Positions 7,116 through 61,043 of a DNA stretch of 64,000 nt are shown here, piece after piece (position 1 is the stretch's first letter; every line of letters begins with the position of its first letter). The stretch is taken from positions 25,667 through 89,666 of the forward strand of contig CAZQMX010000001.1 of NCBI GenBank assembly GCA_964594965.1, in the 5' to 3' direction. The notes under the pieces are model-generated. The model had not been told where the DNA came from and made no database searches. It was given only the letters and a program-made list of their open reading frames with translations. The translations under genes and the position numbers were made by a program. This DNA is from an uncultured Candidatus Saccharibacteria bacterium. Lineage in GTDB: Bacteria > Patescibacteriota > Minisyncoccia > Portnoybacterales > UBA2143.

Positions 7116-7168
7116 CCAAATCTTTGATTTGGTTAGGAACAGTTATCCTGAGCGAAGTCGAAGGATCT
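7116..7168 (+). repeat. CCAAATCTTTGATTTGG hairpin plus the left arm of the MITE-like element (copy A, truncated)
   Basis: GTTATCCTGAGCGAAGTCGAAGGATCT matches the left arm of the other five copies. The right arm is absent. Confidence 0.5.
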
Positions 7169-11471: not shown

Positions 11472-12605
11472 ATGAGAAGAAATAACAAAAAAGTAGTTGT
11501 TGGATTATCAGGCGGAGTTGATTCCTCCGTCTCTTTATTATGCCTCAAAAAACAAGGGTATGAGCCAATCGGGGTTTCTTTTAAATATGATCTCTGGAAA
11601 AACAAAAAAAACAAACTTAAAGAGAATATCTGCTGTTCTGAAAAATCATTTGCCATTGCCAGAGAAATTTGTCAGAAATTAGATGTTCAATATCATATTA
11701 TTGACGATACGATTGATTTCAAAGATAAAGTCATTGGCTATTTTCTCAAAACCCTAAAAGATAAAAAAACGCCCAATCCTTGTTTAATTTGCAATCGCTT
11801 TGTTAAATTTGATAAATTAATTAAGTTTGCTCATAAAATGGATGTCCAATATATTGCCACTGGCCATTATGCTCGGGTAAAAAAACAAGGCAATTCATAT
11901 CAACTTTTGAAAGCAAAAGACAAAACCAAAGACCAAAGTTACTTTTTAGCCCTTTTGGGACAAAAAGAATTATCAAGAATAATTTTTCCTTTAGGGAATT
12001 ATACTAAAAAGCAAGTTTATCAAATTGCCAAAAAACAAGGTTTTGATGCTTTTGAAAAAACCAAACAGAGTCAGGATTTATGCTTTGTTGCCTCCCAATC
12101 AATCCCATTCTTTTTAGAAGAGAAACTTGGATTAGAGCCGGGGAAAATAGTTGATATTGATAACAATATTTTAGGCGAACACAAGGGTTTATATTTTTAT
12201 ACTATTGGCCAGAGAAAAGGATTAAATCTTTCAGGTGGCCCTTGGTATGTAATTGGCTTTGATAAAATCAAAAATTATCTTATAATAACTAATAAGGAAA
12301 AAGATCCAAATCTTTACAAAAAAGAAATTATTCTTTCTGATTTCAGTTTTGTTTCTGGTCAAATACCAAAGGAAGAAATTAAAGTTAAAGCCAAGACCAG
12401 ATTTAGCCAGAAGCCGGCTTTGGCTAAAATTTATCCTCCTAAAAAGAAAAAATTAAAATTAATTTTTGAGAAATCTCAAAAAGCAATTACCCCCGGCCAA
12501 TGGGCAGTTTTTTATAAAGGCGATGTCTGTCTCGGCGGAGGAATAATATTATCGGAGGTTCGACCTCCGATAGTAAAGTCGGAGGTTCGACCTCCGAAAG
12601 TCTAA
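11472..12605 (+). CDS. mnmA: tRNA-specific 2-thiouridylase MnmA
   Basis: PP-loop SGGVDSS with catalytic cysteines. The C-terminal 18 aa (SEVRPPIVKSEVRPPKV) are encoded by two copies of the 17-nt palindrome. Confidence 0.8.
   Translation: MRRNNKKVVVGLSGGVDSSVSLLCLKKQGYEPIGVSFKYDLWKNKKNKLKENICCSEKSFAIAREICQKLDVQYHIIDDTIDFKDKVIGYFLKTLKDKKTPNPCLICNRFVKFDKLIKFAHKMDVQYIATGHYARVKKQGNSYQLLKAKDKTKDQSYFLALLGQKELSRIIFPLGNYTKKQVYQIAKKQGFDAFEKTKQSQDLCFVASQSIPFFLEEKLGLEPGKIVDIDNNILGEHKGLYFYTIGQRKGLNLSGGPWYVIGFDKIKNYLIITNKEKDPNLYKKEIILSDFSFVSGQIPKEEIKVKAKTRFSQKPALAKIYPPKKKKLKLIFEKSQKAITPGQWAVFYKGDVCLGGGIILSEVRPPIVKSEVRPPKV
12553..12596 (+). repeat. two tandem copies of the 17-nt palindrome CGGAGGTTCGACCTCCG
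   Basis: Exact copies at 12553-12569 and 12580-12596. The same 17-mer occurs at 36234 and, on the other strand, at 51870. Confidence 0.8.
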
Positions 12606-13917: not shown

Positions 13918-14703
13918 ATGAAAAACATAAAGGAAATTACAAAAGAAGAATTAGATAATTTGAAAGCTATCACCTTTGATATCGACGGAGTCATTGCTCC
14001 GATTGGGACGAAAATAAAGGAAACTATTGACGAAGATAGTATTGATTTATACATGGAATCAAAGAAACTTTCTGACAAATTTATCCAAACCCTTAAAAAA
14101 CTTGAAAAGCATCTTCGTCTTAATTTCTCATCCGGGAGAAACATTTTGTATCTCAAAAGCTTGGTTAATGAAATTTTTGACGAAAAAACAGTTCTTCAGG
14201 CAGAAAATGGCAATATTACCTGGGTTGATAACCAGATTACTCATCCAAAATATCCAAACGAATATTTTAACCTTTTAAGAGATTTAAAAGAGAAAATCAG
14301 GCAAATGAAAAAAACCGACGAAAGAATTCGCGGTTTTGAACCAAAGTTATTCATTTTAACTGTTCATTCTGAGCAAATGGAAGAAATTCCTAATTTAGTC
14401 AAAGAAATAGGGGGAGAGCAGCTTTATTGCCTTTGGACAAACGAGGGCTATGATATTGGCAGTCTTGATATGTCAAAAGGAAAGGGGATTGAAATTTTAG
14501 CCAAGGCTATGGGGATTAATCCAAAACAGATTATGACAACAGGGAATAATTACAATGACCAGCCCATGCTTGATGTTGGCAAAGGAGTATCAGTTAATCC
14601 TGAAAGAGTTAAAGGAGAATATTTTGTTGAGCATAAAAAAGAAGAACTCGGCGGAGAATTATTAGCCGAGTTCCTCTTAAAACATTTTGAAAATAAAAGT
14701 TAG
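13918..14703 (+). CDS. HAD-superfamily hydrolase (Cof/IIB-like phosphatase)
   Basis: FDIDGV motif I and a C-terminal GNNYNDQPM motif. Start moved to the ATG just after a TGTATAAT element, so the mRNA may be leaderless. Confidence 0.55.
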   Translation: MKNIKEITKEELDNLKAITFDIDGVIAPIGTKIKETIDEDSIDLYMESKKLSDKFIQTLKKLEKHLRLNFSSGRNILYLKSLVNEIFDEKTVLQAENGNITWVDNQITHPKYPNEYFNLLRDLKEKIRQMKKTDERIRGFEPKLFILTVHSEQMEEIPNLVKEIGGEQLYCLWTNEGYDIGSLDMSKGKGIEILAKAMGINPKQIMTTGNNYNDQPMLDVGKGVSVNPERVKGEYFVEHKKEELGGELLAEFLLKHFENKS

Positions 14704-15695
14704 ATTAATCCCATTTTCTGTTTGACTTTCTTTAATGTCTCTCCGGAAATCTTTTGAGCATCCTTGGCACCCTGGTCAAGGATTTTTTTAACCTGAGTCG
14801 GGTCTAGTTCCTTCATTTTTTTCTGAATGGGCTCTAATCCTTTAATAACAAGATCGGCCAGGTCTTTTTTGAATTGAGCATAACCCTTGCCCTTATATTT
14901 CTTTTCAATTCCTTCATAAGACAAACCAGAAAAACAATGATAAATTGTCATTAAATTGGCCACAGCAGGCTTTTTGGGAATATATTCAATTTCTTTTCCC
15001 GAATCTGTCACAGCTCTTTTAATCTTATTCTTAATTTCATCGGGAGAATCAGTCATAAACAGACAGCCCTGGGGAACGCTTTTAGACATCTTTTCAGAGG
15101 GGTCTGCCAAGGACATTATTCTTGCTCCGGCCCCGTAAACGAGGGCCTCGGGTATAATAAAAGTTTTTCCAAATTGATTGTTAAATTTTCGGGCAACTAT
15201 TCTGGTTAGTTCAATGTGTTGTTTTTGATCTTCGCCAACCGGAACAGCGTTGGTATTGTAAAGAAGGATATCCGAAGCCATCAAAACAGGATAACCGAAA
15301 AGCCCCATATTAATATTTTGCTTAAACTGGGCGGCTTTTTCTTTAAATTGAGTCATCCTTTCTAATTCAGAAACAGGAGTTATTGTATTTAAAAGCCAGG
15401 TTAGTTCGGTATGCTCCGGGACGTGGGATTGAACAAAAAGAGTGCATTTTTTAGGGTCTAGACCTGCGGCCAGATAAGTAGTAGCTAGGTCAAGAATATT
15501 TTTTTGCATTCCTTGAACGCTTTCAGGATTAGTTAAGGCGTGTAAATCCACAACACAAAAAATACAATCGTATTGGGACTGTAGTTCTACCCAGTTTTTA
15601 ATTGCACCCAAATAGTTGCCGATATGAATAGAACCAGTTGGCTGGATGCCGCTAAAAATTCTTCTTCGACTTTGCTCAGAATAAATTTTTTTCAT
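14700..15695 (-). CDS. trpS: tryptophan--tRNA ligase
   Basis: HIGH-type HIGN and KMSKS motifs, 331 aa. Confidence 0.85.
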   Translation of the reverse strand: MKKIYSEQSRRRIFSGIQPTGSIHIGNYLGAIKNWVELQSQYDCIFCVVDLHALTNPESVQGMQKNILDLATTYLAAGLDPKKCTLFVQSHVPEHTELTWLLNTITPVSELERMTQFKEKAAQFKQNINMGLFGYPVLMASDILLYNTNAVPVGEDQKQHIELTRIVARKFNNQFGKTFIIPEALVYGAGARIMSLADPSEKMSKSVPQGCLFMTDSPDEIKNKIKRAVTDSGKEIEYIPKKPAVANLMTIYHCFSGLSYEGIEKKYKGKGYAQFKKDLADLVIKGLEPIQKKMKELDPTQVKKILDQGAKDAQKISGETLKKVKQKMGLI

Positions 15696-15708: not shown

Positions 15709-15778
15709 GTCATTCTGAACGAAACGAAGTGGAGTGAAGAATCTTTTTTACAGATCCTTCGCTAACGCTCAGGATGAC
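15709..15778 (-). repeat. MITE-like palindromic element, copy B (minus orientation)
   Basis: GTCATTCTGAAC...GAAGAATCT / AGATCCTTCGCT...CTCAGGATGAC. Sits 14 nt upstream of the trpS start. Confidence 0.7.
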
Positions 15779-18848: not shown

Positions 18849-18966
18849 GCCAGTGTAGTCCCGATTTTGTTCAAATCTCTGATTTGAATACAAAACCGCG
18901 GATCCTCGAAAATTATAAAATCAAAAGATTTTTAATTTTCGGGACTCAATGAGGTAACATATTCTA

Positions 18967-19038: not shown

Positions 19039-19119
19039 CTGGGAGTTCGGGTGGGTTCGCCCTGTCATCCGACAGGGCGCCCCGTCGAATGACGGGGCGA
19101 ATCCTCCCACTGGCTCCAG

Positions 19120-19201: not shown

Positions 19202-19267
19202 CGCGTTTTTTATCCAAAACTTGTTTTGGGTATAAAAAAGAGCGTCCCGTCGGATGACGGGACTCAC

Positions 19268-27567: not shown

Positions 27568-27660
27568 CCAAATCTTGATTTGGTAGTAAATAGTTATCCT
27601 GAGGAGCAAAGCGACGAAGGATCTATAACTAACAGATTCTTCGCTAACGCTCAGAATGAC
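27568..27660 (+). repeat. CCAAATCTTGATTTGG hairpin plus MITE-like element, copy C
   Basis: GTTATCCTGAGGAGCAAAGCGACGAAGGATCT / AGATTCTTCGCTAACGCTCAGAATGAC. Between the rplL stop and the ATG at 27680. Confidence 0.7.
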
Positions 27661-28890: not shown

Positions 28891-28988
28891 GGGTATGAAG
28901 TGAATGATTGTGGATAAAAGTGGGGATAAGTATATAAAATTGTGGATAACTGACTATTTTGTCTTAATCTTTGATTCAGATACAAAAT

Positions 28989-29055
28989 ATCATCCTGAGG
29001 AGCGAAGCGATCGAAGGATCTGTACAAACAGATTCTTCGCTTTGCTCAGAATGAC
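28989..29055 (+). repeat. MITE-like palindromic element, copy D
   Basis: ATCATCCTGAGGAGCGAAGCGATCGAAGGATCT / AGATTCTTCGCTTTGCTCAGAATGAC. 38 nt upstream of mraZ, inside the operon leader. Confidence 0.7.
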
Positions 29056-29525: not shown

Positions 29526-30443
29526 ATGCACCAGCCTGTCCTTCTAAACGAAGTTCTAAAATATCTTAATCCAGAATCAAACCAGGACTTTATTGACTGC
29601 ACTTTTGGCTGGGGAGGCCATTCTTTAGAAATACTAAAAAGAAACAAACCCAATGGTAAGGTTTTAGGAATAGAACGAGACAAAAAAGTTTTAGAGATTC
29701 TAGAAAAGGAAAGAAATGAAAAAAGATTAATTTTGGTTAATAATAATTTTTCTGACTTAGAGAGAATTGTTCAGGAAAATGAATTTCTGTCGGTTAACGG
29801 AATTCTCTTTGACCTGGGATTATCTTCCTGGCAAATAGAGAAAAGCGGAAAGGGATTTAGTTTTATGAGAGATGAACCACTTTTAATGAATTATGAATCA
29901 GGAATTAGGAATCAAGAATTAACAGCCGCGACAATCATCAACCAGTGGAGTAAAGAAGATTTAGAACAAATACTAAAAGAATACGGAGAAGAAAGATATG
30001 CCAGAAGAATAGCCCGAAAAATACATCAGAGCAGACAAAAACAGAAAATTGAAACAACTGGCCAATTAGTTGAAATTATTAAAAAAGCAGTTCCAATTAA
30101 TTATCAAAGAAGAAGAATCCCCCGAAAAAAAGCAAGCTTTTCACGGGGCAGGCATTTTGCAACTAAGACATTTCAGGCGTTAAGAATTGCGGTTAATGAC
30201 GAATTAAATAATCTGGAAAAAGCTCTTCCCCAAGCATTAAAGATTTTGAATAAGAAAGGTCGAATAGTAATTATCTCTTTCCACTCTTTAGAAGACAGAA
30301 TTGCTAAAAACTTTTTTCGTCAGAAAGCCAGAGAAGGGGAATTAGAAATTTTAATAAAAAAGCCCATTAGGCCAAGTCAGGAAGAAATTAAATTAAATCC
30401 TCGCAGCCGAAGCGCTAAATTAAGAGCGGCTGTGAAAATATAA
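29526..30443 (+). CDS. rsmH: 16S rRNA (cytosine1402-N4)-methyltransferase RsmH (MraW)
   Basis: HQPVLLNEVL...DCTFGWGGHS signature. Confidence 0.85.
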   Translation: MHQPVLLNEVLKYLNPESNQDFIDCTFGWGGHSLEILKRNKPNGKVLGIERDKKVLEILEKERNEKRLILVNNNFSDLERIVQENEFLSVNGILFDLGLSSWQIEKSGKGFSFMRDEPLLMNYESGIRNQELTAATIINQWSKEDLEQILKEYGEERYARRIARKIHQSRQKQKIETTGQLVEIIKKAVPINYQRRRIPRKKASFSRGRHFATKTFQALRIAVNDELNNLEKALPQALKILNKKGRIVIISFHSLEDRIAKNFFRQKAREGELEILIKKPIRPSQEEIKLNPRSRSAKLRAAVKI

Positions 30444-32626: not shown

Positions 32627-33895
32627 ATGCGTAGCATTTTACAATATATTCTAAAAATTCTGGCTAAAGTAGTCCTATATCGGTACAAACCGGAAATTGT
32701 TGCTGTAACCGGTAACGTTGGCAAAACCAGCACCAAAGAAGCTATTGCCCAGGTTTTAGAAAAATTCTTTCGGGTCAGACAAAACAAGAGGAATTACAAT
32801 AATGAGATTGGAGTGCCTTTAACAATAATTGGCTTAGAGACCGGCGGGAGTTCATTAATTGCCTGGTTGAAAAATTTTTTACTCGCTCTTAGAACAATTT
32901 TATGGAGAGGTGATTATCCGGAAATTCTGATTCTGGAGATGGGCATTGATAAGCCCGGAGATATGGAATATTTAATGAGTTTTATCCCGGTTGACGTCGC
33001 CGTTATCACCGCTATTGGAGAATTTCCTGTTCATCTTGAATTTTTCCCTGGAAAAGGAAAATTGGTTCAAGAAAAAGCCCTTTTGGCTAAATCACTTGAC
33101 GGAGAAGGCCAGGTGGTTCTAAATTACGATGATTTATCTGTTCGGGCGATTGGCGATGAGTTGCCCGAGGGATTAAAAAAGATTCAATACGGATTTGGTC
33201 AGGCAGCGAATTTAAGAATTATGAATTATGAATTAGGAATTAGGAATTTAGAAAAAAAAGATTTTGGCATAAGTTTCAAATTAGAATATGGAGGAAGTAT
33301 TGTCCCGGCCCAGATAAAGGGGGCAACCGGAAAACAACATGCCTTTGCCCTTGCCGCTGCCGCCGGAGTTGGATTGTATTTCGGCCTTAATCTGGTTGAG
33401 ATTTCAGGAGCTTTCAAAAAACATAGATCCTTACCCGGCCGAACCAACCTCTAAAAAGGAATTAAACAAACCTGGATTATTGATGATAGTTACAATGCTT
33501 CGCCTTTGGCAACTTTAGCTTCTCTGGAAATTCTAAACCAATTTTCAGAAGGAAAAAGAAGGAGAATTGCAGTCCTGGGTGATATGCTTGAATTAGGGAG
33601 CAAAACCGAAGAAGGTCATCGCCAAGTTGGAAAAAAAGTAAAAGAAACTGCTGATTTGCTTTTTACTGTTGGCAGCCGGGCTATCTTTATCGCTGACCAA
33701 GCCAGAAAAGCAGGAATGAAAAAAGAAAATATTTTTGAGTTCCAGACCTCAAAACAAGCCGGACTAGCAGTCCAAAAACAACTAATCAGCCAGGATATTA
33801 TTCTAGTTAAAGGGTCGCGCTCAATCCATACGGAAGAAGTTACCAGAGAAATTATGGCTCATCCGGAAAAAGCCGATGAATTGTTGGTAAAATAA
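32627..33895 (+). pseudogene. murF: UDP-MurNAc-tripeptide--D-Ala-D-Ala ligase MurF interrupted by a single in-frame TAA at 33452-33454
   Basis: Mur ligase P-loop TGNVGKTSTKE in ORF 1. DDSYNASP and the C-terminal domain are in ORF 2, which is in the same frame. The spacing GR-(14 aa)-DDSYNA matches intact MurF if the stop is read as sense. This may be a sequencing error or a genuine nonsense codon. Confidence 0.6.
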
Positions 33896-34039: not shown

Positions 34040-34104
34040 CAAGCCTAGACGGGTTCGCCCCGTCGGATGACGGGACGGTAGTCCATCGAAAGGAGGTGAT
34101 AAAA

Positions 34105-35483: not shown

Positions 35484-36230
35484 ATGATTCCATATTTCTC
35501 GTACAATCAGGTTGAAATATTTGGGATAACTCTTTATCCCTGGGGGTTTTTTATTGGTCTGGCTTTTCTTTCCGGCTATTTATTGATTTTAAATCAATCC
35601 AAAAAACAGGGAATAAGGGAAAAAAATGTTTTCTGGCTTTTTATCTGGATTTTTATCGGGGTAATGATTGGTTCTCGTTTGGGATATATTCTTCAATTCC
35701 CAGGAAGATTTTTTGATAATCCAATAGATATTTTTAAATTCAGCGCCGGGGGATTGATGCTTTATGGTGGACTTATCGGAGCTTTAATTACCGGAGGACT
35801 TTATTTAAAAAAAGCCAAGCTTAATTTTTTAAAAACAGCTGATATTTTAGCGCCGGCTATTGCTTTGGGTATCTTTATCGGTCGGATTGGCTGTTTTTTA
35901 ATTAATGACCACCAGGGGGCAGTAACAAGTTTGCCTTGGGCAATTCAATGGGCGGACGGCAGTTTGCGTCACCCCATTGCCCTTTATTTATCTCTTAATG
36001 GATTAATTCTATTTTTTGTCTTATTAAAATTAAGAAAGAAATTAATTAAACCAGGCCAATTATTTTTTATTTTTCTAGCTTGGTACGCCATTTCCCGCTT
36101 TTTCCTTGATTTTCTGAGAGCAAGTGATACAGTATTAGCAGACCCTCATTACTGGGGTTTGACAATTAGCCAGTGGTTCAGTTTGTTAATTCCTATCATA
36201 CTATTTGCGTGTTTAAAATTTCGGAGATAA
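35484..36230 (+). CDS. lgt: prolipoprotein diacylglyceryl transferase
   Basis: Polytopic protein with a GRIGCFLINDHQG signature region. Start trimmed to MIPYF. Confidence 0.75.
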   Translation: MIPYFSYNQVEIFGITLYPWGFFIGLAFLSGYLLILNQSKKQGIREKNVFWLFIWIFIGVMIGSRLGYILQFPGRFFDNPIDIFKFSAGGLMLYGGLIGALITGGLYLKKAKLNFLKTADILAPAIALGIFIGRIGCFLINDHQGAVTSLPWAIQWADGSLRHPIALYLSLNGLILFFVLLKLRKKLIKPGQLFFIFLAWYAISRFFLDFLRASDTVLADPHYWGLTISQWFSLLIPIILFACLKFRR

Positions 36231-36233
36231 TTT

Positions 36234-36260
36234 CGGAGGTTCGACCTCCGATTTTTTTTA
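36234..36260 (+). terminator. 17-nt palindrome CGGAGGTTCGACCTCCG followed by T8, an intrinsic terminator after lgt
   Basis: 7-bp GC stem with a 3-nt loop, then TTTTTTTT. Confidence 0.6.
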
Positions 36261-46767: not shown

Positions 46768-46865
46768 CTAAATCTCTGATTTAGTTTAAAATAGTCATCC
46801 TGAGGGCGAAGCCCGAAGGATCTATGGCAAAGAAAAGATAGATTCTTCGCTTCACTCAGAATGAC
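46768..46865 (+). repeat. CTAAATCTCTGATTTAG hairpin plus MITE-like element, copy E
   Basis: GTCATCCTGAGGGCGAAGCCCGAAGGATCT / AGATTCTTCGCTTCACTCAGAATGAC, ending 9 nt before the dnaK ATG. Confidence 0.7.
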
Positions 46866-51264: not shown

Positions 51265-51349
51265 CTGAAATTTATTACGGGTTCGCCCTGTCATCCGACG
51301 GGGCGCCCTATCGGATGATAGGGCGATTCCCTCTACCCCTACCATGATA

Positions 51350-51444: not shown

Positions 51445-52347
51445 ATGCATCACATAGCGATAATGAGAAAATCCTGGGGTCTCTTGCCCAAGATTTTAAC
51501 CAAAGAAAAGACAATTGAATCACGCTGGTATATGAATAAATATTCCCCCTGGGACAGAATTAAAAAAGGGGATATTGTCTATTTTAAAAACTCTGGCGAG
51601 CCGATCAGCGTTAAAACAGAAGTTTCAAAGATTATTCAGTATTCAGATTTAACATCAGTTAAAGTTAAACAAATTCTTGAAGAATATGGCGCTAAAGATG
51701 GTTTGGGCATTAATGAAATTGACAAATATTATCAGATGTTTAAAGATAAAAAGTATTGTTTATTAATTTTTCTTAAAAATCCGCAGAAAATTAAATCTTT
51801 TGATATAGACAAAACCGGATTTGGAGCCATGGCGGCCTGGATAACAGTTGATAATATAAAAAGAATTATCGGAGGTCGAACCTCCGACAGTCCCAATATG
51901 ACTAATTTAATGACAAAAGAACAATTTAATAAGAAAAAGAAGGAACTGGATAAATTAAAGAAAGAATATGAGAAATTGGGTAAAAAGATTTCTGGAGAAG
52001 CCAAAGACAGCGGTTCTTTTCTTCATAATATCCCAGGCTATGTTGGATTAATGGATAGAATGGAAGCCCTCTCTTTAAAGATTGCTCAGTTAGAAAAAGA
52101 ATTGGACTCTGTTCAAATGATTAGCCCGAAGGAGATTCCTTCTGGTGTTGTCTCGGTTTTATCCTGTGTTTTGGTTTTAGATATTCTGAAAAACAAAAAA
52201 GAGAAATATTGTTTCGGGGAAAATATTAGCCAGGATTCCTTAATTGGCAAAGCGCTGATTAATAAGAAGGTTGGGGATAGAGTAAAAGTTAAAACCCCAA
52301 AAGGCGAAAGGGAATTGGAGATACTGGAAATAGAAGTTATGGCTTGA
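51445..52347 (+). CDS. fusion protein: N-terminal ASCH domain plus GreA/GreB-like coiled-coil and C-terminal FKBP-like domain
   Basis: ASCH motif LTKEKTIESRW...GD. GreA-like C-terminal domain SPKEIPSGVVS...IGKALINKKVGDRVKV. The 17-nt palindrome (51870-51886) lies in-frame at the junction. Start chosen after a TATGCTAAAAT element. Confidence 0.45.
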   Translation: MHHIAIMRKSWGLLPKILTKEKTIESRWYMNKYSPWDRIKKGDIVYFKNSGEPISVKTEVSKIIQYSDLTSVKVKQILEEYGAKDGLGINEIDKYYQMFKDKKYCLLIFLKNPQKIKSFDIDKTGFGAMAAWITVDNIKRIIGGRTSDSPNMTNLMTKEQFNKKKKELDKLKKEYEKLGKKISGEAKDSGSFLHNIPGYVGLMDRMEALSLKIAQLEKELDSVQMISPKEIPSGVVSVLSCVLVLDILKNKKEKYCFGENISQDSLIGKALINKKVGDRVKVKTPKGERELEILEIEVMA

Positions 52348-58381: not shown

Positions 58382-58460
58382 AATAATGAATAATGAATCA
58401 CGAATAAGGAATAGATTTAATTCTTGATTCCTAATTCTTAATTCTTAATTCTGATTCCTA
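58382..58460. repeat. inverted arrays of 7-nt periodic repeats (GAATAAT... / ...ATTCTTA)
   Basis: GAATAATGAATAATGAATCACGAATAAGGAAT | ATTCTTGATTCCTAATTCTTAATTCTTAATTCTGATTCC. Confidence 0.6.
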
Positions 58461-59567
58461 ATGAGAATAGTATTTGCCGGTGGCGGCACTGGCGGACATA
58501 TTTATCCGATTATTGCCGTAGCCAGACAATTAAAACAGGGACAAATACCCTTGGAAATGTTCTTTCTTGGACCAGTTGGTCCTTATCGTCAGGAACTGGA
58601 AAAAGAGGGGATTATTGTCAAGTCGGTCCTGGCCGGAAAATTAAGAAGATATTTTTCCATTTGGACAATTTTGGATATTTTAAAGTTTCCTCTTGGTCTA
58701 ATTCAATCTCTTTGGTATTTGTTTATCCTAATGCCGGACATTGTTTTTTCCAAAGGGGGATACGGCAGTGTTCCGATTACCCTGGTCTCCTGGACATATT
58801 TCATCCCAATCATTTCTCATGAATCAGATGCTGTTCCGGGTCTGGCTAATCGCATTGGAGCATTTTTTTCAAAAAGAATTGCTCTTTCATTTCAATCGGC
58901 CGGGAAGTATTTTTCTTCTAAAAAAACTGCTTTGGTTGGTAATCCAATCCGTTCAGAGATTGCCCAGATTTGTCTTTCAACTGATTCTCAAGAAAAAGAA
59001 AAAGGCAAACAACTTTTTAGCATTTCCGGTCAAAAGCCAATTATTTTGATTTTAGGCGGCAGTCAGGGGGCAGAGAAAATTAATCGATTGGTCTTATCCG
59101 TTTTGCCCAGTCTCTTGGAGAAATATGAGGTTATTCATCAATCCGGGCCAAAAAATTATGAGAAGATAAAAAGCTGGTTAAAGCAAATGCCGGTTAATTA
59201 CCATCTCTTTCCATTTTTGGATGAAAACCAGATTGCCCACGCCTATCTTGTTTCTAATCTAATCATTTCCCGGGCCGGAGCAGGAAGTATTTCAGAAATT
59301 GCCGCTTGCGGAAAGCCAAGCATTTTAATCCCAATTCCTAAATCAGCCTCTGACCATCAGAGAAAAAATGCTTTTGATTACGCTCGGGCCGGAGCAACAT
59401 CAGTTCTGGAACAGGATAATTTAACGCCTAATTTGCTCTTAAACGAAATATCAGAGATACTGGATAATCCGGAATTAGCCCAGAAAATGTCTTTGAATGC
59501 CAAGAATTTTTCCCGGCCCCGAGCCGCCCAAAAAATCGCAGAGGAAATAGTTGAGATGGGGAGGTAG
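58461..59567 (+). CDS. murG: UDP-GlcNAc--MurNAc-pentapeptide GlcNAc transferase MurG
   Basis: GGGTGGHIYP N-terminal motif and the GT28 C-terminal domain. Confidence 0.85.
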   Translation: MRIVFAGGGTGGHIYPIIAVARQLKQGQIPLEMFFLGPVGPYRQELEKEGIIVKSVLAGKLRRYFSIWTILDILKFPLGLIQSLWYLFILMPDIVFSKGGYGSVPITLVSWTYFIPIISHESDAVPGLANRIGAFFSKRIALSFQSAGKYFSSKKTALVGNPIRSEIAQICLSTDSQEKEKGKQLFSISGQKPIILILGGSQGAEKINRLVLSVLPSLLEKYEVIHQSGPKNYEKIKSWLKQMPVNYHLFPFLDENQIAHAYLVSNLIISRAGAGSISEIAACGKPSILIPIPKSASDHQRKNAFDYARAGATSVLEQDNLTPNLLLNEISEILDNPELAQKMSLNAKNFSRPRAAQKIAEEIVEMGR

Positions 59568-59570
59568 TAT

Positions 59571-61043
59571 ATGAAAAAAAATCAAGAAACACAAGTTAGG
59601 TTTGCGCCGAGTCCGACCGGGCTGTTTAGTATAGGCAATGCTCGGACGGCTCTTTTTAACTATTTATTCGCCAAACAGAACAAAGGTAAATTTATTCTTC
59701 GAATAGAAGATACTGATGAAGACCGCTCTGAAAAAAAATATGAGAAAGATATCATAGAGAATCTGAAATGGCTTGGATTAAATTGGGACGAAGGACCAAT
59801 AAAACAGAGTGAAAGAACAGAAATTTATCAGAAAGAAATTAAAAAACTCCTTGAACAAGGAGATGCTTTTTTCTGCGACCACACCAAAGAAGAATTAAAC
59901 GAAGAGAAAGAAGAGCAAAGTAAGAGAAAAGAGGCTCCCCGGCATATTTGCAATCGTCCTAATTATGTCATTCTGAAGGAGTCGAAGACGACTGAAGAAT
60001 CTGTTAACAGATCCTTCGCTGACGCTCAGGATGACAGAGGTAAAAAGGATACTAGAAACAAGAAGGGAATTATTCGATTCCGGACGCCCAAAGGAAAAAT
60101 TACTTTCAATGATTTAATTCGGGGGAAAGTTGAAATTAACGGAGAGCTATTAGGGGATTTCAGCATTGCCAAGGATGAAAAAACTCCTTTATATAATTTT
60201 AGCGCGGTTGTTGACGACGCCGAAATGAAAATATCTCATGTTATTAGAGGAGAAGACCATCTTCCCAATACGCCTAAACAAATCCTCCTATACAAAGCCC
60301 TTAAATTAGATGTGCCGGAATTTGCTCATTTGCCTTTAATTTTAGGTCCAGATAGGTCTAAAATGAGCAAAAGGCATGGATCAACCTCTGTTGGTCAATA
60401 CAAAAAAGAAGGGTATTTACCAGAGGCGATAAATAACTTTTTAGCGCTTTTAGGCTGGAATCCAGGAACGGAAAAAGAAATATTTTCAATGAATGAATTA
60501 ATCAAGGAATTTTCTCTTGAAAGAGTTCATAAAGGCGGAGCAATTTTTAACATTGAACGATTGGATTGGATTAATGGACAATATATTCGGCAGATGGATT
60601 TAGATGAATTAACCAAGAAATGCCTTGAATATTTACCAAAAGAAACAGATTTTGAATACGCTAAGAAAATAGTTAAATTAGAACAGGAAAGAATTAAGAG
60701 ATTGTCGGAAATAGGGGAGTTAAGTCAATTCTTTTTTAAGGATAAACTAGATTATGATAAAGAACTCTTAATTTGGAAGAAAATGTCTTTAGAACAAGTT
60801 AAGGAAAAACTGGAATTAATACTCAAAGAATTAGAAAAAGTAGGGGATTTTGATCAAGAAAACCTGGAATATCTAATGATGCCTCTGGCGGAAAAACACG
60901 GCCGAGGCGAGCTTCTATGGCCTCTGAGAGTGGCTTTAACAGGCCAAAAGGCCTCACCCGGACCTTTTGAGATAATGGAGGTTTTGGGTAAGGAAAAGAC
61001 CTTAGAAAGAGTGGAAGAAGCAATAAAAAAACTCCAAGAATAG
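59571..61043 (+). CDS. gltX: glutamate--tRNA ligase carrying an in-frame 23-aa insertion
   Basis: PSPTG...IGNARTA and KMSKR motifs. Insertion VILKESKTTEESVNRSFADAQDD is encoded by MITE copy F. Confidence 0.85.
   Translation: MKKNQETQVRFAPSPTGLFSIGNARTALFNYLFAKQNKGKFILRIEDTDEDRSEKKYEKDIIENLKWLGLNWDEGPIKQSERTEIYQKEIKKLLEQGDAFFCDHTKEELNEEKEEQSKRKEAPRHICNRPNYVILKESKTTEESVNRSFADAQDDRGKKDTRNKKGIIRFRTPKGKITFNDLIRGKVEINGELLGDFSIAKDEKTPLYNFSAVVDDAEMKISHVIRGEDHLPNTPKQILLYKALKLDVPEFAHLPLILGPDRSKMSKRHGSTSVGQYKKEGYLPEAINNFLALLGWNPGTEKEIFSMNELIKEFSLERVHKGGAIFNIERLDWINGQYIRQMDLDELTKKCLEYLPKETDFEYAKKIVKLEQERIKRLSEIGELSQFFFKDKLDYDKELLIWKKMSLEQVKEKLELILKELEKVGDFDQENLEYLMMPLAEKHGRGELLWPLRVALTGQKASPGPFEIMEVLGKEKTLERVEEAIKKLQE
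59967..60035 (-). repeat. MITE-like palindromic element, copy F (minus orientation), 69 nt, in-frame inside gltX
   Basis: GTCATTCTGAAGGAGTCGAAGACGACTGAAGAATCT / AGATCCTTCGCTGACGCTCAGGATGAC. Starts on a gltX codon boundary and is 23 codons long. Confidence 0.7.

What the first reader, a model, noticed from the sequence alone, without database searches (positions are those of the whole stretch)
59967..60035. gltX carries an exact in-frame 69-nt insertion of the MITE-like element (23 extra residues)
Seen directly: copy F begins on a gltX codon boundary (59967 is codon 133) and is 69 nt long, which is 23 codons with no stop. It adds VILKESKTTEESVNRSFADAQDD between ...RHICNRPNY and RGKKDTRNKKGIIRF. 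The class-I GluRS motifs on either side (HIGH-like SIGNARTA, KMSKR) are intact. Inference: this is either a tolerated surface-loop insertion in an essential aminoacyl-tRNA synthetase or an intein-like nuisance. It also shows the element can land in coding sequence and survive when in frame.
Basis: partly seen in the sequence, partly recalled or inferred. Interest (0 to 1): 0.65.

Follow-up and report, generated by a model that had tools for sequence, protein, structure and literature searches.

The report
Palindromic repeat translated inside GluRS
A 69-base selfish palindromic repeat has landed in frame inside the essential glutamyl-tRNA synthetase gene of a tiny-genome (Patescibacteria) bacterium and is read through as a floppy extra loop. 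This is the same kind of event long known from Rickettsia, seen here with a different repeat family that occurs across most bacterial phyla.

Summary
Window 59967-60035 is a 69-nt member of a dispersed palindromic repeat family with five full copies and one half copy in the window. It starts at codon 133 of gltX (59571-61043) and adds VILKESKTTEESVNRSFADAQDD without a stop.

- **Lineage-specific:** the closest syntenic orthologues have an empty site (CNR-KGKAKEG-IIRF). The real length difference is 28 codons: PNY, the 23 element codons, and about 4 more.
- **Not an assembly quirk:** the identical DNA appears in two different assemblies.
- **Gene still functional:** it scores as bona fide gltX_bact, is under purifying selection (dN/dS about 0.1), and folds as GluRS (pLDDT 90.8). 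Residues 137-162 are disordered.
- **Position:** the insert sits in the variable loop just after the putative zinc knuckle.
- **Recurrent:** related Patescibacteria GluRS carry other copies of the repeat in the same loop and in a second loop. trpS in this window has a single repeat arm in frame at its N-terminus.
- **Intein, intron, ribozyme and bypass readings fail.**

The closest precedent is the Rickettsia palindromic elements, including one in PheT. The element is REP/REPIN-like, has no target-site duplication and is not in Rfam. Its core occurs in many phyla. Verdict: real, explained, moderately interesting.

The parts
59571..61043 (+). gltX (glutamate--tRNA ligase), 490 aa, host gene of the insertion
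   Evidence: ORF. NCBIfam TIGR00464 gltX_bact scores 523 bits against a cut-off of 290. Pfam PF00749 and PF19269. AF2 pLDDT 90.8. Foldseek TM 0.86 to bacterial GluRS structures. dN/dS 0.09-0.14 against orthologues.
59967..60035 (+). Copy F of the palindromic repeat: 69-nt core, codons 133-155, VILKESKTTEESVNRSFADAQDD. With the conserved flanking T and A the element is 59966-60036. The left arm is ATTCT...AGAAT and the right arm ATCCT...AGGAT, which is the reverse orientation relative to the intergenic copies and their downstream genes.
   Evidence: RNA hairpin -26.8 kcal/mol, z = -3.8. No terminator-like site at the element.
59958..59966 (+). CCTAATTAT (Pro-Asn-Tyr), extra codons immediately 5' of the element. 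They are absent from empty-site orthologues and shared only with the orthologue in L003.
60036..60068 (+). Remainder of the loop (RGKKDTRNKKG), about 4 codons longer than the consensus KGKAKKG, up to the conserved GIIRF strand
59874..59951 (+). Putative zinc knuckle C102-x-H104 ... H125-x-C127; the insertion begins 3-6 residues after C127
   Evidence: C102 is invariant and H104, H125 and C127 are at least 90% conserved in 98 homologues. C102 and H104 align with E. coli GluRS C98 and C100. The identity of the E. coli zinc ligands is from my own knowledge.
59628..59639 (+). HIGH-signature position, here SIGN (His replaced by Ser)
   Evidence: 117 of 120 homologues have His; SIGN, TIGN and TMGN occur once each.
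60360..60374 (+). KMSKS signature (KMSKR), intact
15709..15778 (-). Copy B, a full element, 13 nt upstream of the trpS start codon (between prfA and trpS); the copy most similar to F
15658..15682 (-). Single repeat arm (ATTCTGAGCAAAGTCGAAGAAGAAT) inside trpS codons 4-12. It adds IYSEQSRR to the consensus N-terminus MKKRIFSG.
7142..7168 (+). Copy A, a single arm, in the 5' leader of an ABC-transporter permease gene
27593..27660 (+). Copy C, a full element, about 20 nt upstream of a gene start
28989..29055 (+). Copy D, a full element, 37 nt upstream of the mraZ start
46794..46865 (+). Copy E, a full element, 9 nt upstream of a gene start

Best explanation
**What it is.** Copy F is a passenger. 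It is one copy of a dispersed, non-coding palindromic repeat made of two inverted, hairpin-forming REP-like arms (a REPIN-like doublet, TGTCAT...ATGACA). It became inserted in the gltX coding sequence of this Portnoybacteria-like Patescibacteria lineage after the split from its nearest sequenced relatives.

**Why it survived.** Three filters were passed:
1. Its length is divisible by three.
2. It sits in the only reading frame in which this subtype has no stop codon.
3. It landed in a solvent-exposed, length-variable loop directly after the zinc knuckle of the acceptor-arm-binding insertion domain, where extra residues do not disturb the fold.

**How it works now.** It is transcribed and translated with the gene as a charged, disordered excursion of about 26-28 residues. 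The enzyme stays functional.

**Shown:**
- family membership
- absence from orthologues
- identical sequence in separate assemblies
- intact catalytic architecture
- purifying selection
- predicted disorder
- repeated colonisation of the same loop in relatives

**Inferred:** that it is translated rather than removed, that it is neutral or slightly deleterious rather than useful, and how it moves. The absence of a target-site duplication together with the hairpin arms suggests a single-strand or HUH-type mechanism, or a recombination or template-switch mechanism, rather than a DDE transposase. No enzyme was identified.
For: **Family membership**
- 12 terminus motifs against 1.1 expected.
- nhmmer E=1.2e-15 for F, from a profile that includes F.
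- 94% identity to the arm of copy B.

**Absent from orthologues**
- The syntenic orthologues L004 and L005 have the empty site TGTAATAGA|AAGGGG....
- The consensus loop in 120 homologues is PRHIC-NR-KGKAKKG-IIRF.
- P0001 groups with the insert-free P0002, P0003 and P0004 in 100 of 100 bootstraps.

**Not a chimera**
- 7.4 kb is 100% identical to the window in both a JGI contig and an ENA contig. Six contigs carry the exact protein.

**Functional host gene**
- gltX_bact scores 523 bits.
- KMSKR is present.
- dN/dS is 0.09-0.14.
- AF2 gives pLDDT 90.8, with only residues 137-162 below 50.
- TM-score 0.86 to solved GluRS structures.
- PDB sequence alignments break exactly across residues 113-166.

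**Frame filter**
- Only 3 of 30 combinations of copy, frame and orientation are both divisible by three and stop-free.

**Recurrence**
- P0005, P0049, P0061 and P0075 carry related elements in the same loop.
- P0061, P0090 and about 7 others carry them at a second loop near residue 357.
- A trpS arm insertion lies in this window.

**Precedent**
- Rickettsia palindromic elements insert in frame, including a 63-84 bp RPE-7 insert in PheT (PMC1779305; PMC10969869).
Against: - There is no direct evidence of translation. No proteome, transcriptome or reads were available.
- Only one allele is known, so tolerance is inferred rather than measured.
- The HIGH histidine is replaced (SIGN), so full activity cannot be assumed.
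- The 5' junction, including 9-12 non-element bases, is identical in a non-sister orthologue that carries a different subtype of the element. A simple 'one random insertion' story does not explain this.
- gltX is mosaic around the element: dS is 1.26 on the 5' side and 0.72 on the 3' side against L004. Recombination may therefore have delivered or reshaped the insert.
- No mobilising enzyme was found.
Confidence: 0.82

Rival explanations
1. The insertion has been exapted. Either the charged flexible loop next to the zinc knuckle contributes to tRNA acceptor-arm or partner (GatCAB) binding, or the -27 kcal/mol mRNA hairpin modulates gltX translation. The repeated occurrence in this loop would then reflect selection for it.
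For: At least five related GluRS lineages carry repeat-derived inserts in the same loop. The loop lies in the acceptor-binding insertion domain (plus own knowledge). The hairpin is stable, z = -3.8.
Against: - Most close orthologues, roughly 105 of 120, do without any insert. None of 150 diverse representatives has one.
- The inserted peptides differ in sequence, frame and length between lineages.
- AF2 sees no structure in the insert.
- The same family also sits in intergenic DNA and in another gene.
Confidence: 0.08
2. Assembly artefact: a repeat copy was spliced into gltX by mis-assembly of a dispersed repeat.
For: Short dispersed repeats are classic places for assembly errors. Reads could not be examined.
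Against: - The sequence is identical in contigs from a JGI and an ENA assembly.
- The insert is flanked on both sides by uninterrupted gltX in the right frame.
- Copy F is not identical to any other copy in the window, so it cannot have been copied from one of them.
- Analogous inserts occur in orthologues from unrelated assemblies.
Confidence: 0.03
3. The segment is removed before the mature protein is made, as an intein, an intron or ribozyme, or by translational bypass. It would then be invisible to the enzyme.
For: It is a strongly folding palindrome inside a coding region.
Against: - The segment is only 23 residues, with Val at its first position and Arg following its last. It has none of the Cys/Ser/Thr and His-Asn splicing residues.
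- The 23-residue peptide has no Pfam hit.
- There is no Rfam family at gathering threshold over the whole window. At permissive thresholds nothing turned up on intergenic copies C and D. Copy F itself was not scanned at the permissive threshold.
- There are no matching take-off and landing codons and no stop codon after the take-off site.
- Frame 0 is the only stop-free frame and is the one used here and in P0005 and P0061. That constraint would be pointless if the segment were excised.
Confidence: 0.02
4. This gltX is a decaying or non-canonical paralogue (HIGH His to Ser plus an insert), and the working GluRS is encoded elsewhere.
For: SIGN replaces HIGH, a rare state seen in 3 of 120 homologues. 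Only 64 kb of the genome is visible.
Against: - The gene sits in the conserved syntenic position of the single-copy orthologue (AspRS-PBP-MraY-FtsW-MurG-GluRS).
- dN/dS is 0.09-0.14.
- It scores at full length as gltX_bact.
- All other invariant residues are kept.
- TIGN-type signatures are functional in TrpRS (own knowledge).
Confidence: 0.03
5. The 23 residues are an ancestral or convergent hypervariable loop that merely resembles the repeat.
For: The loop is hypervariable in length among homologues.
Against: - Nucleotide-level membership in the repeat family covers the full length, including both termini.
- The closest relatives have an empty site.
- The distribution on the tree is patchy.
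Confidence: 0.01

Closest known systems
Rickettsia palindromic elements (RPEs), including the RPE-7-derived insert in phenylalanyl-tRNA synthetase beta chain (Ogata et al. 2000, 2002; PMC1779305; review PMC10969869)
   Same: - Dispersed palindromic repeats found both between genes and in frame inside essential genes of a reduced-genome bacterium.
- The insert is translated as an extra peptide at a structurally tolerant site.
- Even the target class matches, since PheT is also an aminoacyl-tRNA synthetase.
- Proliferation is lineage-specific.
   Different: - RPEs are 100-150 bp and are described in Rickettsia. This element is 69-71 bp, in Patescibacteria.
- This element is built from two REP-like arms, and its core blocks occur in many phyla.
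- Sequence similarity to RPE consensus sequences was not tested.
- Here the same loop of one enzyme has been hit repeatedly in different lineages.
REP / REPIN elements mobilised by RAYT (REP-associated tyrosine transposases) (PMC3116915, PMC3337134)
   Same: - Short imperfect palindromic units of about 22-30 nt occur as singlets, as inverted doublets separated by a short spacer, and in tandem clusters.
- They are mostly extragenic.
- There is no target-site duplication.
   Different: - The conserved 5' GTAG/GTGG tag is absent; the termini are TGTCAT.
- No RAYT or any other recurrent neighbouring gene was found.
- REPINs are described as vertically inherited and lineage-specific. Here near-identical core blocks occur across phyla.
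- REPs are by definition extragenic, whereas here two copies are translated.
Bacterial MITEs with intragenic, in-frame copies (ERIC, BOX, Correia, Anabaena MITEs; review PMC10969869)
   Same: Small size, non-coding, terminal inverted repeats, able to fuse in frame with host ORFs.
   Different: No target-site duplication, and no parent insertion sequence with the same ends was identified.
Idiosyncratic insertions in the zinc-binding acceptor-arm domain of bacterial GluRS (for example the loop after Cys125/His127 in E. coli GluRS, PDB 8I9I)
   Same: Same structural position. E. coli has 15 residues where this protein has 39, which shows that the site tolerates length variation.
   Different: Those loops are ordinary protein sequence with no relation to a repeat. 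Here the origin of the extra residues is traceable to a mobile palindrome.

Membership tests
Bacterial glutamyl-tRNA synthetase (gltX_bact, class I aaRS) | Full-length match to the equivalog model above its curated cut-off, with catalytic and anticodon-binding domains | tested here: met
   TIGR00464 scores 523 bits against a cut-off of 290. PF00749 and PF19269. TM 0.86 to solved GluRS structures.
Bacterial glutamyl-tRNA synthetase (gltX_bact, class I aaRS) | HIGH and KMSKS signature motifs | tested here: inconclusive
   KMSKR is present. The HIGH position reads SIGN, with His replaced (His in 117 of 120 homologues). Activity was not testable.
Rickettsia palindromic elements (RPE) | Palindromic interspersed repeat present both in intergenic DNA and in frame in ORFs | tested here: met
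Rickettsia palindromic elements (RPE) | Length 100-150 bp (PMC1779305) and occurrence in Rickettsia genomes | tested here: not met
   Element is 69-71 bp. Nearest named homologues are Candidatus Portnoybacteria / Patescibacteria group.
Rickettsia palindromic elements (RPE) | Sequence similarity to one of the RPE-1 to RPE-10 consensus sequences | not tested
MITE | Terminal inverted repeats; small size; no coding capacity | tested here: met
   TGTCATYCTGAG / CTCAGRATGACA termini; 55-106 bp
MITE | Target-site duplication flanking the element | tested here: not met
   No flanking direct repeat in 100 of 109 cross-phylum copies, nor in the window copies.
MITE | Parent autonomous IS with the same termini | not tested
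   Only 64 kb of the genome is visible. No recurrent gene lies next to 120 copies from other genomes.
REP / REPIN | Units are short imperfect palindromes occurring as singlets, inverted doublets with a short spacer, and clusters | tested here: met
   - Arms ATYSY-GAG...GA-RSRAT of 21-31 nt in the window, up to about 50 nt in related loci.
- Doublets B-F, singlets at 7145-7166 and 15658-15682.
- Tandem cluster L143:8560-8980.
- With the inner arm halves fixed by the search, the left outer terminus matches its own arm in 88 of 88 copies. The right outer terminus does so in 85 of 88.
REP / REPIN | Conserved GTAG/GTGG tetranucleotide at the 5' end of each REP | tested here: not met
   Termini are (T)GTCAT.
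REP / REPIN | A cognate single-copy RAYT gene flanked by REPs | not tested
   The genome is incomplete, and neighbour clustering found nothing recurrent. Window ORFs were not screened against the transposase family.
Intein | Hint domain of at least about 130 aa, with N-terminal Cys/Ser, C-terminal His-Asn and a downstream Cys/Ser/Thr | tested here: not met
   23 residues, starting with Val, ending Asp-Asp and followed by Arg. The peptide has no Pfam hit.
Self-cleaving ribozyme, intron or any curated RNA family | Match to an Rfam covariance model | tested here: not met
   Only six tRNAs at gathering threshold in the whole window. Only chance-level hits at E up to 10 on intergenic copies C and D. 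Copy F itself was covered only by the gathering-threshold scan.
Programmed translational bypass (T4 gene 60 type) | Matching take-off and landing codons flanking the gap, with a stop codon right after take-off | tested here: not met
   The codon before the element is TAT and the first codon after it is AGA. No in-frame stop occurs anywhere in the element.

The most novel reading that the evidence does not exclude
The repeat in gltX belongs to an apparently undescribed family that spans many bacterial phyla. Elements are about 55-105 nt long. They have four near-invariant blocks ((T)GTCATCCTGAG / CGAAGGATCT / AGATTCTTC / CTCAGAATGAC(A)) separated by freely varying hairpin tips.

Each outer terminus pairs with the inner half of its own arm rather than with the opposite terminus. 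That pattern points to two independent, constrained hairpins. If the conservation reflects constraint, it implies a conserved trans-acting partner, either a single-strand DNA transposase or nuclease or an RNA-processing activity.

In gene-dense Patescibacteria this element recurrently, and perhaps site-specifically, colonises permissive loops of essential enzymes. Supporting cases are the same gltX junction in two non-sister lineages and the same trpS site in two non-sister lineages.
Probability: 0.3. Interest if true: 0.7.

Novelty: new member of a known kind. Interest (0 to 1): 0.45.

Why it matters
- **Generality.** It extends a phenomenon thought of as a Rickettsia curiosity, selfish palindromes read through inside essential genes, to the Candidate Phyla Radiation. 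Those genomes have almost no intergenic space, so flexible protein loops may be among the few safe landing sites.
- **Natural tolerance map.** It shows where GluRS tolerates insertions: the loop after the zinc knuckle and a loop in the anticodon-binding domain. It also gives a second example at the N-terminus of TrpRS.
- **Practical consequences.** Such inserts inflate apparent divergence, break alignments and profile matches (the PDB alignments split exactly here), and can mislead annotation and phylogeny of marker genes in metagenome-assembled genomes.
- **Wider question.** The element family occurs in many phyla with near-invariant core blocks and has no Rfam entry. Its mobilisation mechanism is an open question that these coding-sequence copies, with clean empty-site comparisons, could help to solve.

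Tried and rejected
- **Rfam.** A gathering-threshold scan of the whole window found only six tRNAs. A permissive scan over copies C and D found only chance-level hits.
- **Literature by sequence.** Searching for the terminus strings returned only chance primer matches. Searching for characteristic translated peptides returned one unrelated hit. Searches for MITE plus Patescibacteria and for aaRS plus palindromic insert gave nothing relevant. The Ogata 2002 paper is not held. A search for a paper on the E. coli GluRS zinc ligands found nothing.
- **Plasmid collection.** BLAST with a consensus element found no match.
- **Metagenome scan for the shared 5' junction (TGYAAYMGNCCNAAKTAYGTCAT).** It returned three unrelated chance hits and no further lineages. 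The junction motif is next to no other element copy in the 154 fetched loci.
- **Search for a linked gene.** All-against-all clustering of ORFs around 120 cross-phylum copies found no recurrent neighbour beyond generic transporters and kinases.
- **Orientation or position bias across phyla.** A crude ORF-based analysis showed mostly intergenic copies with no clear orientation preference. The uniform orientation of the five intergenic window copies (p about 0.06) is therefore not generalisable.
- **Recombination-patch hypothesis for trpS.** The 5' end is conserved in all pairs, so it is not informative.
- **Considered and rejected.** Intein, intron or ribozyme, translational bypass, integron attC, dif/Xer site, and CRISPR-like array. 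The tandem arrays in viral contigs are whole elements with T-rich 13-nt spacers, not repeat-spacer units.
Full report
**1. The observation**

The ORF 59571-61043 (+) encodes a 490-aa protein. It scores as bacterial glutamate--tRNA ligase: NCBIfam gltX_bact gives 523 bits against a cut-off of 290, and Pfam finds PF00749 plus PF19269. Position 59967 is the first base of codon 133.

The 69 bases to 60035 read VILKESKTTEESVNRSFADAQDD without a stop, between ...RHICNRPNY and RGKKDTRNKKGIIRF. The stretch belongs to a repeat family:
- Its terminus motif occurs 12 times in the window against 1.1 expected.
- A profile built from the five full copies, F included, finds F at E=1.2e-15, so that score is partly circular.
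- Independently, its right arm is 94% identical to that of copy B.

The other copies are A 7142-7168 (one arm only), B 15709-15778, C 27593-27660, D 28989-29055 and E 46794-46865.

**2. Anatomy of the element**

Each copy has the form GTC-[ATYCT-GAG...CGA-AGRAT]-CT..loop..AG-[ATYCT-TC...CTC-AGRAT]-GAC. It is two inverted arms, and each arm is itself a small imperfect hairpin. The minimum-energy fold of the whole element is a long hairpin of -20 to -30 kcal/mol, z about -4 to -5.

In 109 copies from other genomes, position -1 is T in 72% and position +1 is A in 75%. No target-site duplication is seen in 100 of 109. The unit is therefore TGTCAT...ATGACA, which in gltX is 59966-60036.

Copies A to E are all intergenic and lie 9-40 nt upstream of a start codon. 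All have the same orientation relative to the downstream gene. F has the opposite orientation relative to gltX.

In this subtype both termini contain TGA in two of the three frames. Only 3 of 30 combinations of copy, frame and orientation are both divisible by three and open. That is why a surviving coding copy must begin on a codon boundary.

**3. Is the insert lineage-specific and real?**

The exact protein is encoded on six contigs. Two were fetched, one from a JGI assembly and one from an ENA assembly, and both are 100% identical to the window over 7.4 kb.

Orthology is secured by synteny (AspRS-PBP-MraY-FtsW-MurG-GluRS-C39 peptidase-...-Xer) in five related genomes. The two nearest with long contigs, L004 and L005, have an empty site: TGTAATAGA|AAGGGGAAAGCC... 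and TGTGACAGG|CAAGCC....

Among 120 homologues the consensus loop is PRHIC-NR-KGKAKKG-IIRF. The window protein groups with the insert-free P0002, P0003 and P0004 in 100 of 100 NJ bootstraps.

Against these, the gene is 28 codons longer: PNY, the 23 element codons, and about four more in RGKKDTRNKKG.

**4. State of the host gene**

- KMSKR is intact.
- The HIGH position reads SIGN. His is present in 117 of 120 homologues, with TIGN in P0003 and TMGN in P0009. From my own knowledge, TrpRS naturally uses TIGN, so this need not mean inactivity.
- dN/dS against four orthologues is 0.07-0.14 on both sides of the insert.
- AlphaFold2 with 98 homologues gives mean pLDDT 90.8. Only residues 137-162 fall below 50, with no secondary structure between 119 and 161.
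- The model superposes on solved bacterial GluRS with TM up to 0.86.
- Sequence alignments to PDB chains break exactly across residues 113-166.

A focused alignment pairs C102 and H104 with E. coli C98 and C100. It leaves 39 residues here opposite 15 in E. coli. From my own knowledge, that E. coli segment holds the remaining zinc ligands Cys125 and His127.

C102 is invariant, and H104, H125 and C127 are conserved in at least 90% of 98 homologues. The insert therefore sits 3-6 residues after the zinc knuckle, in the acceptor-arm-binding insertion domain, in a loop whose length varies naturally.

**5. Recurrence**

Related GluRS carry the same kind of element in the same loop:
- L003/P0005 has a 75-nt 'GC-type' copy (GTCATTGCGAG...CGCAATGAC).
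- L006/P0061 has a 102-nt copy.
- L007/P0075 has one and a half copies.
- P0049 has an SFAHAQDD half copy.

A second loop near residue 357 is also occupied, in P0061, P0090 and about seven sequences with a single arm read as SLRGAEGDEAIS.

Each genome uses its own subtype. The window has only the CT type, while L003, L006 and L007 have the GC type. L004 and L005 have none in 21 kb. The L003 gltX copy is 74/75 identical, in reverse complement, to an intergenic copy 2.3 kb away, so that insertion or conversion is recent.

None of 150 more diverse GluRS representatives has such an insert. The phenomenon is confined to this clade, where it affects roughly one orthologue in eight.

Within the window a second case exists. 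trpS (14700-15695, minus strand) starts MKK-IYSEQSRR-RIFSG, where 84 of 120 homologues start MKKRIFSG. The extra 24 nt are a single arm at 15658-15682. The nearest orthologue (88% identity) lacks it, and a distant one (66%) has it at the same site.

**6. Mechanism and rivals**

The best-supported reading is a passenger insertion that passed three filters: length divisible by three, the one open frame, and a permissive loop. It is then simply translated. Confidence is about 0.8.

Removal at the RNA or protein level is unlikely:
- The segment is too short for an intein and has no intein splicing residues. The 23-residue peptide has no Pfam hit.
- No Rfam family matches. The gathering scan covered the whole window. 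The permissive scan covered only copies C and D, not F.
- There is no bypass signature.
- There is no terminator-like tail.
- The frame constraint itself argues for read-through.

An assembly artefact is unlikely given two assemblies and the uniqueness of copy F. An adaptive role cannot be excluded. It is disfavoured by the heterogeneity of the inserts and by their absence from most relatives.

How the element moves is not known. The absence of a target-site duplication and the hairpin arms resemble REP/REPIN biology. However, the GTAG tag is absent, and no RAYT or other linked gene was found.

**7. Unexplained features**

(a) The window and L003 share the 5' junction CATATTTGCAATCGTCCTAA[T/G]TAT|GTCAT (23 of 24 bases). 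This holds although the elements are of different subtypes, the 3' junctions differ, and the proteins are never sisters. P[NK]Y occurs in no other homologue, and a metagenome scan found no further carriers.

(b) gltX is mosaic relative to L004. Nucleotide identity is 75.5% and dS 1.26 on the 5' side of the insert, against 85.5% and 0.72 on the 3' side. Neighbouring genes are 86-90% identical.

(c) L006 has what looks like a relic CT-type terminus just before its GC-type copy, and L007 has stacked copies. Elements seem to accumulate on elements.

Short-patch recombination, replacement by the resident subtype, or a hidden target preference could each account for parts of this. None was demonstrated.

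**8. The wider family**

The hits span many groups:
- Firmicutes
- Planctomycetota
- Omnitrophota
- Ignavibacteriota
- Acidobacteriota
- Chloroflexota
- Proteobacteria
- Bacteroidota
- Cyanobacteria
- several CPR groups

A chromosome-level MAG and an isolate-type assembly are also included.

In 96 of 123 matches both outer termini are present. In the 88 clearest cases the left outer terminus is complementary to the inner half of its own arm in 88 of 88. The right outer terminus is so in 85 of 88. In those 85 copies the two outer termini would form a C-A mismatch with each other.

The arm tips vary freely and often form their own hairpins. Viral-labelled contigs hold 23 loci, including tandem clusters with a period of about 87 nt.

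I found no Rfam family and no paper naming this element. My literature search was by strings only, so it may simply be unnamed rather than unknown.

**9. Comparison and verdict**

In kind this matches the Rickettsia palindromic elements. Those are interspersed palindromes of 100-150 bp, present between genes and in frame within them. They include a 63-84 bp RPE-7 insert in the aaRS subunit PheT (PMC1779305; PMC10969869).

It is not a member of that family by length and host, and sequence similarity was not tested. Architecturally it is closest to REPINs but fails their GTAG tag. It fails the target-site-duplication criterion of MITEs.

I rate it a new member of a known kind: real, well explained and moderately interesting (0.45). 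The more novel possibility is that the element family itself is an undescribed, constrained, phylum-spanning mobile hairpin with site preferences.

Noticed in passing
window 15658-15682 (minus strand), inside trpS 14700-15695: A single arm of the same repeat sits in frame in codons 4-12 of tryptophanyl-tRNA synthetase (MKK-IYSEQSRR-RIFSG against the consensus MKKRIFSG). The same insertion at the same site is present in a distant orthologue (L155:4709-, 66% aa identity, 22/24 nt). It is absent from the nearest one (L156, 88%).
   Followed up: yes
window 59943-59966 and L003 10373-10396: The 5' junction of the gltX insertion is identical (23/24 nt, including 9-12 non-element bases) in two non-sister orthologues. 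They carry different subtypes of the element and have different 3' junctions.
   Followed up: partly
window 59571-59957 versus 60064-61043: gltX is mosaic relative to the closest genome (L004). Identity is 75.5% and dS 1.26 upstream of the insert, against 85.5% and 0.72 downstream. Flanking genes are 86-90% identical. A recombination breakpoint lies at or near the element.
   Followed up: partly
window 59628-59639: The HIGH signature of GluRS reads SIGN, with the first His replaced by Ser. Only 3 of 120 homologues lack the His (SIGN, TIGN, TMGN).
   Followed up: partly
loci L008-L127 (genome collection) and L132-L154 (viral collection): The core blocks of the element occur in genomes of very many bacterial phyla, with invariant termini and freely varying hairpin tips. 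With the inner arm halves fixed by the search, each outer terminus matches its own arm (88/88 and 85/88). No Rfam family, no plasmid-collection hit and no linked gene were found.
   Followed up: partly
L143 8560-8980; L150 8923-9526: Tandem clusters of five whole elements, with periods of about 87 nt in L143 and about 78 nt in L150. In L143 the copies are separated by T-rich 13-nt spacers, reminiscent of BIME-type REP clusters.
   Followed up: partly
window 7117-7132, 27571-27585, 28964-28979, 46769-46784; also 18872-18887: A small palindromic motif, AAATCTnTGATTTRG, lies about 10 nt upstream of element copies A, C, D and E. It also occurs without an element about 80 nt upstream of a tRNA cluster. 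It may be a promoter- or operator-like module associated with the 5'-leader copies.
   Followed up: partly
window 7142-7168, 15709-15778, 27593-27660, 28989-29055, 46794-46865: All five intergenic copies lie 9-40 nt upstream of a start codon, in the same orientation relative to the downstream gene (p about 0.06 by chance). No such bias was seen in a crude survey of copies from other phyla.
   Followed up: partly
window 19051-19104, 19236-19264, 34049-34077, 51277-51330: G+C-rich hairpins flank tRNA genes (CCCGTC-GGAT/GAAT-GACGGG). Their stem-loop contains the same heptamer as the element termini (GTCATCC / GGATGAC). They form a separate small repeat family.
   Followed up: no
window 12546-12598, 36227-36252, 51863-51888: Another short hairpin repeat, TCGGAGGTTCGACCTCCGA, occurs at four sites. 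At least one is followed by a T-run and so is terminator-like.
   Followed up: no
window 29872-29925, 33207-33260, 58417-58451: Runs of GAATTAG/GAATTAT heptamers. The third run is inverted and lies immediately upstream of the murG start at 58461.
   Followed up: no
homologues P0043, P0046, P0083, P0095 (alignment A1, near residue 75 of the window protein): A different repeated peptide (DCPLDTVLESRTVSKGQSL and variants, once duplicated) is inserted at another GluRS loop in several relatives. It is probably a second translated repeat family.
   Followed up: no
L128 5373-5411 (orthologue P0003): The empty-site loop of P0003 contains a perfect small palindrome, GGGAGCC-T-GGCTCCC (encoding part of SFGSLAPK), at the position where others carry the element. 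It may be a footprint or an unrelated hairpin.
   Followed up: no
protein P0226 (representative search): A 935-aa MurG-GluRS fusion protein exists among the representatives. This fits the conserved murG-gltX adjacency seen in all loci.
   Followed up: no
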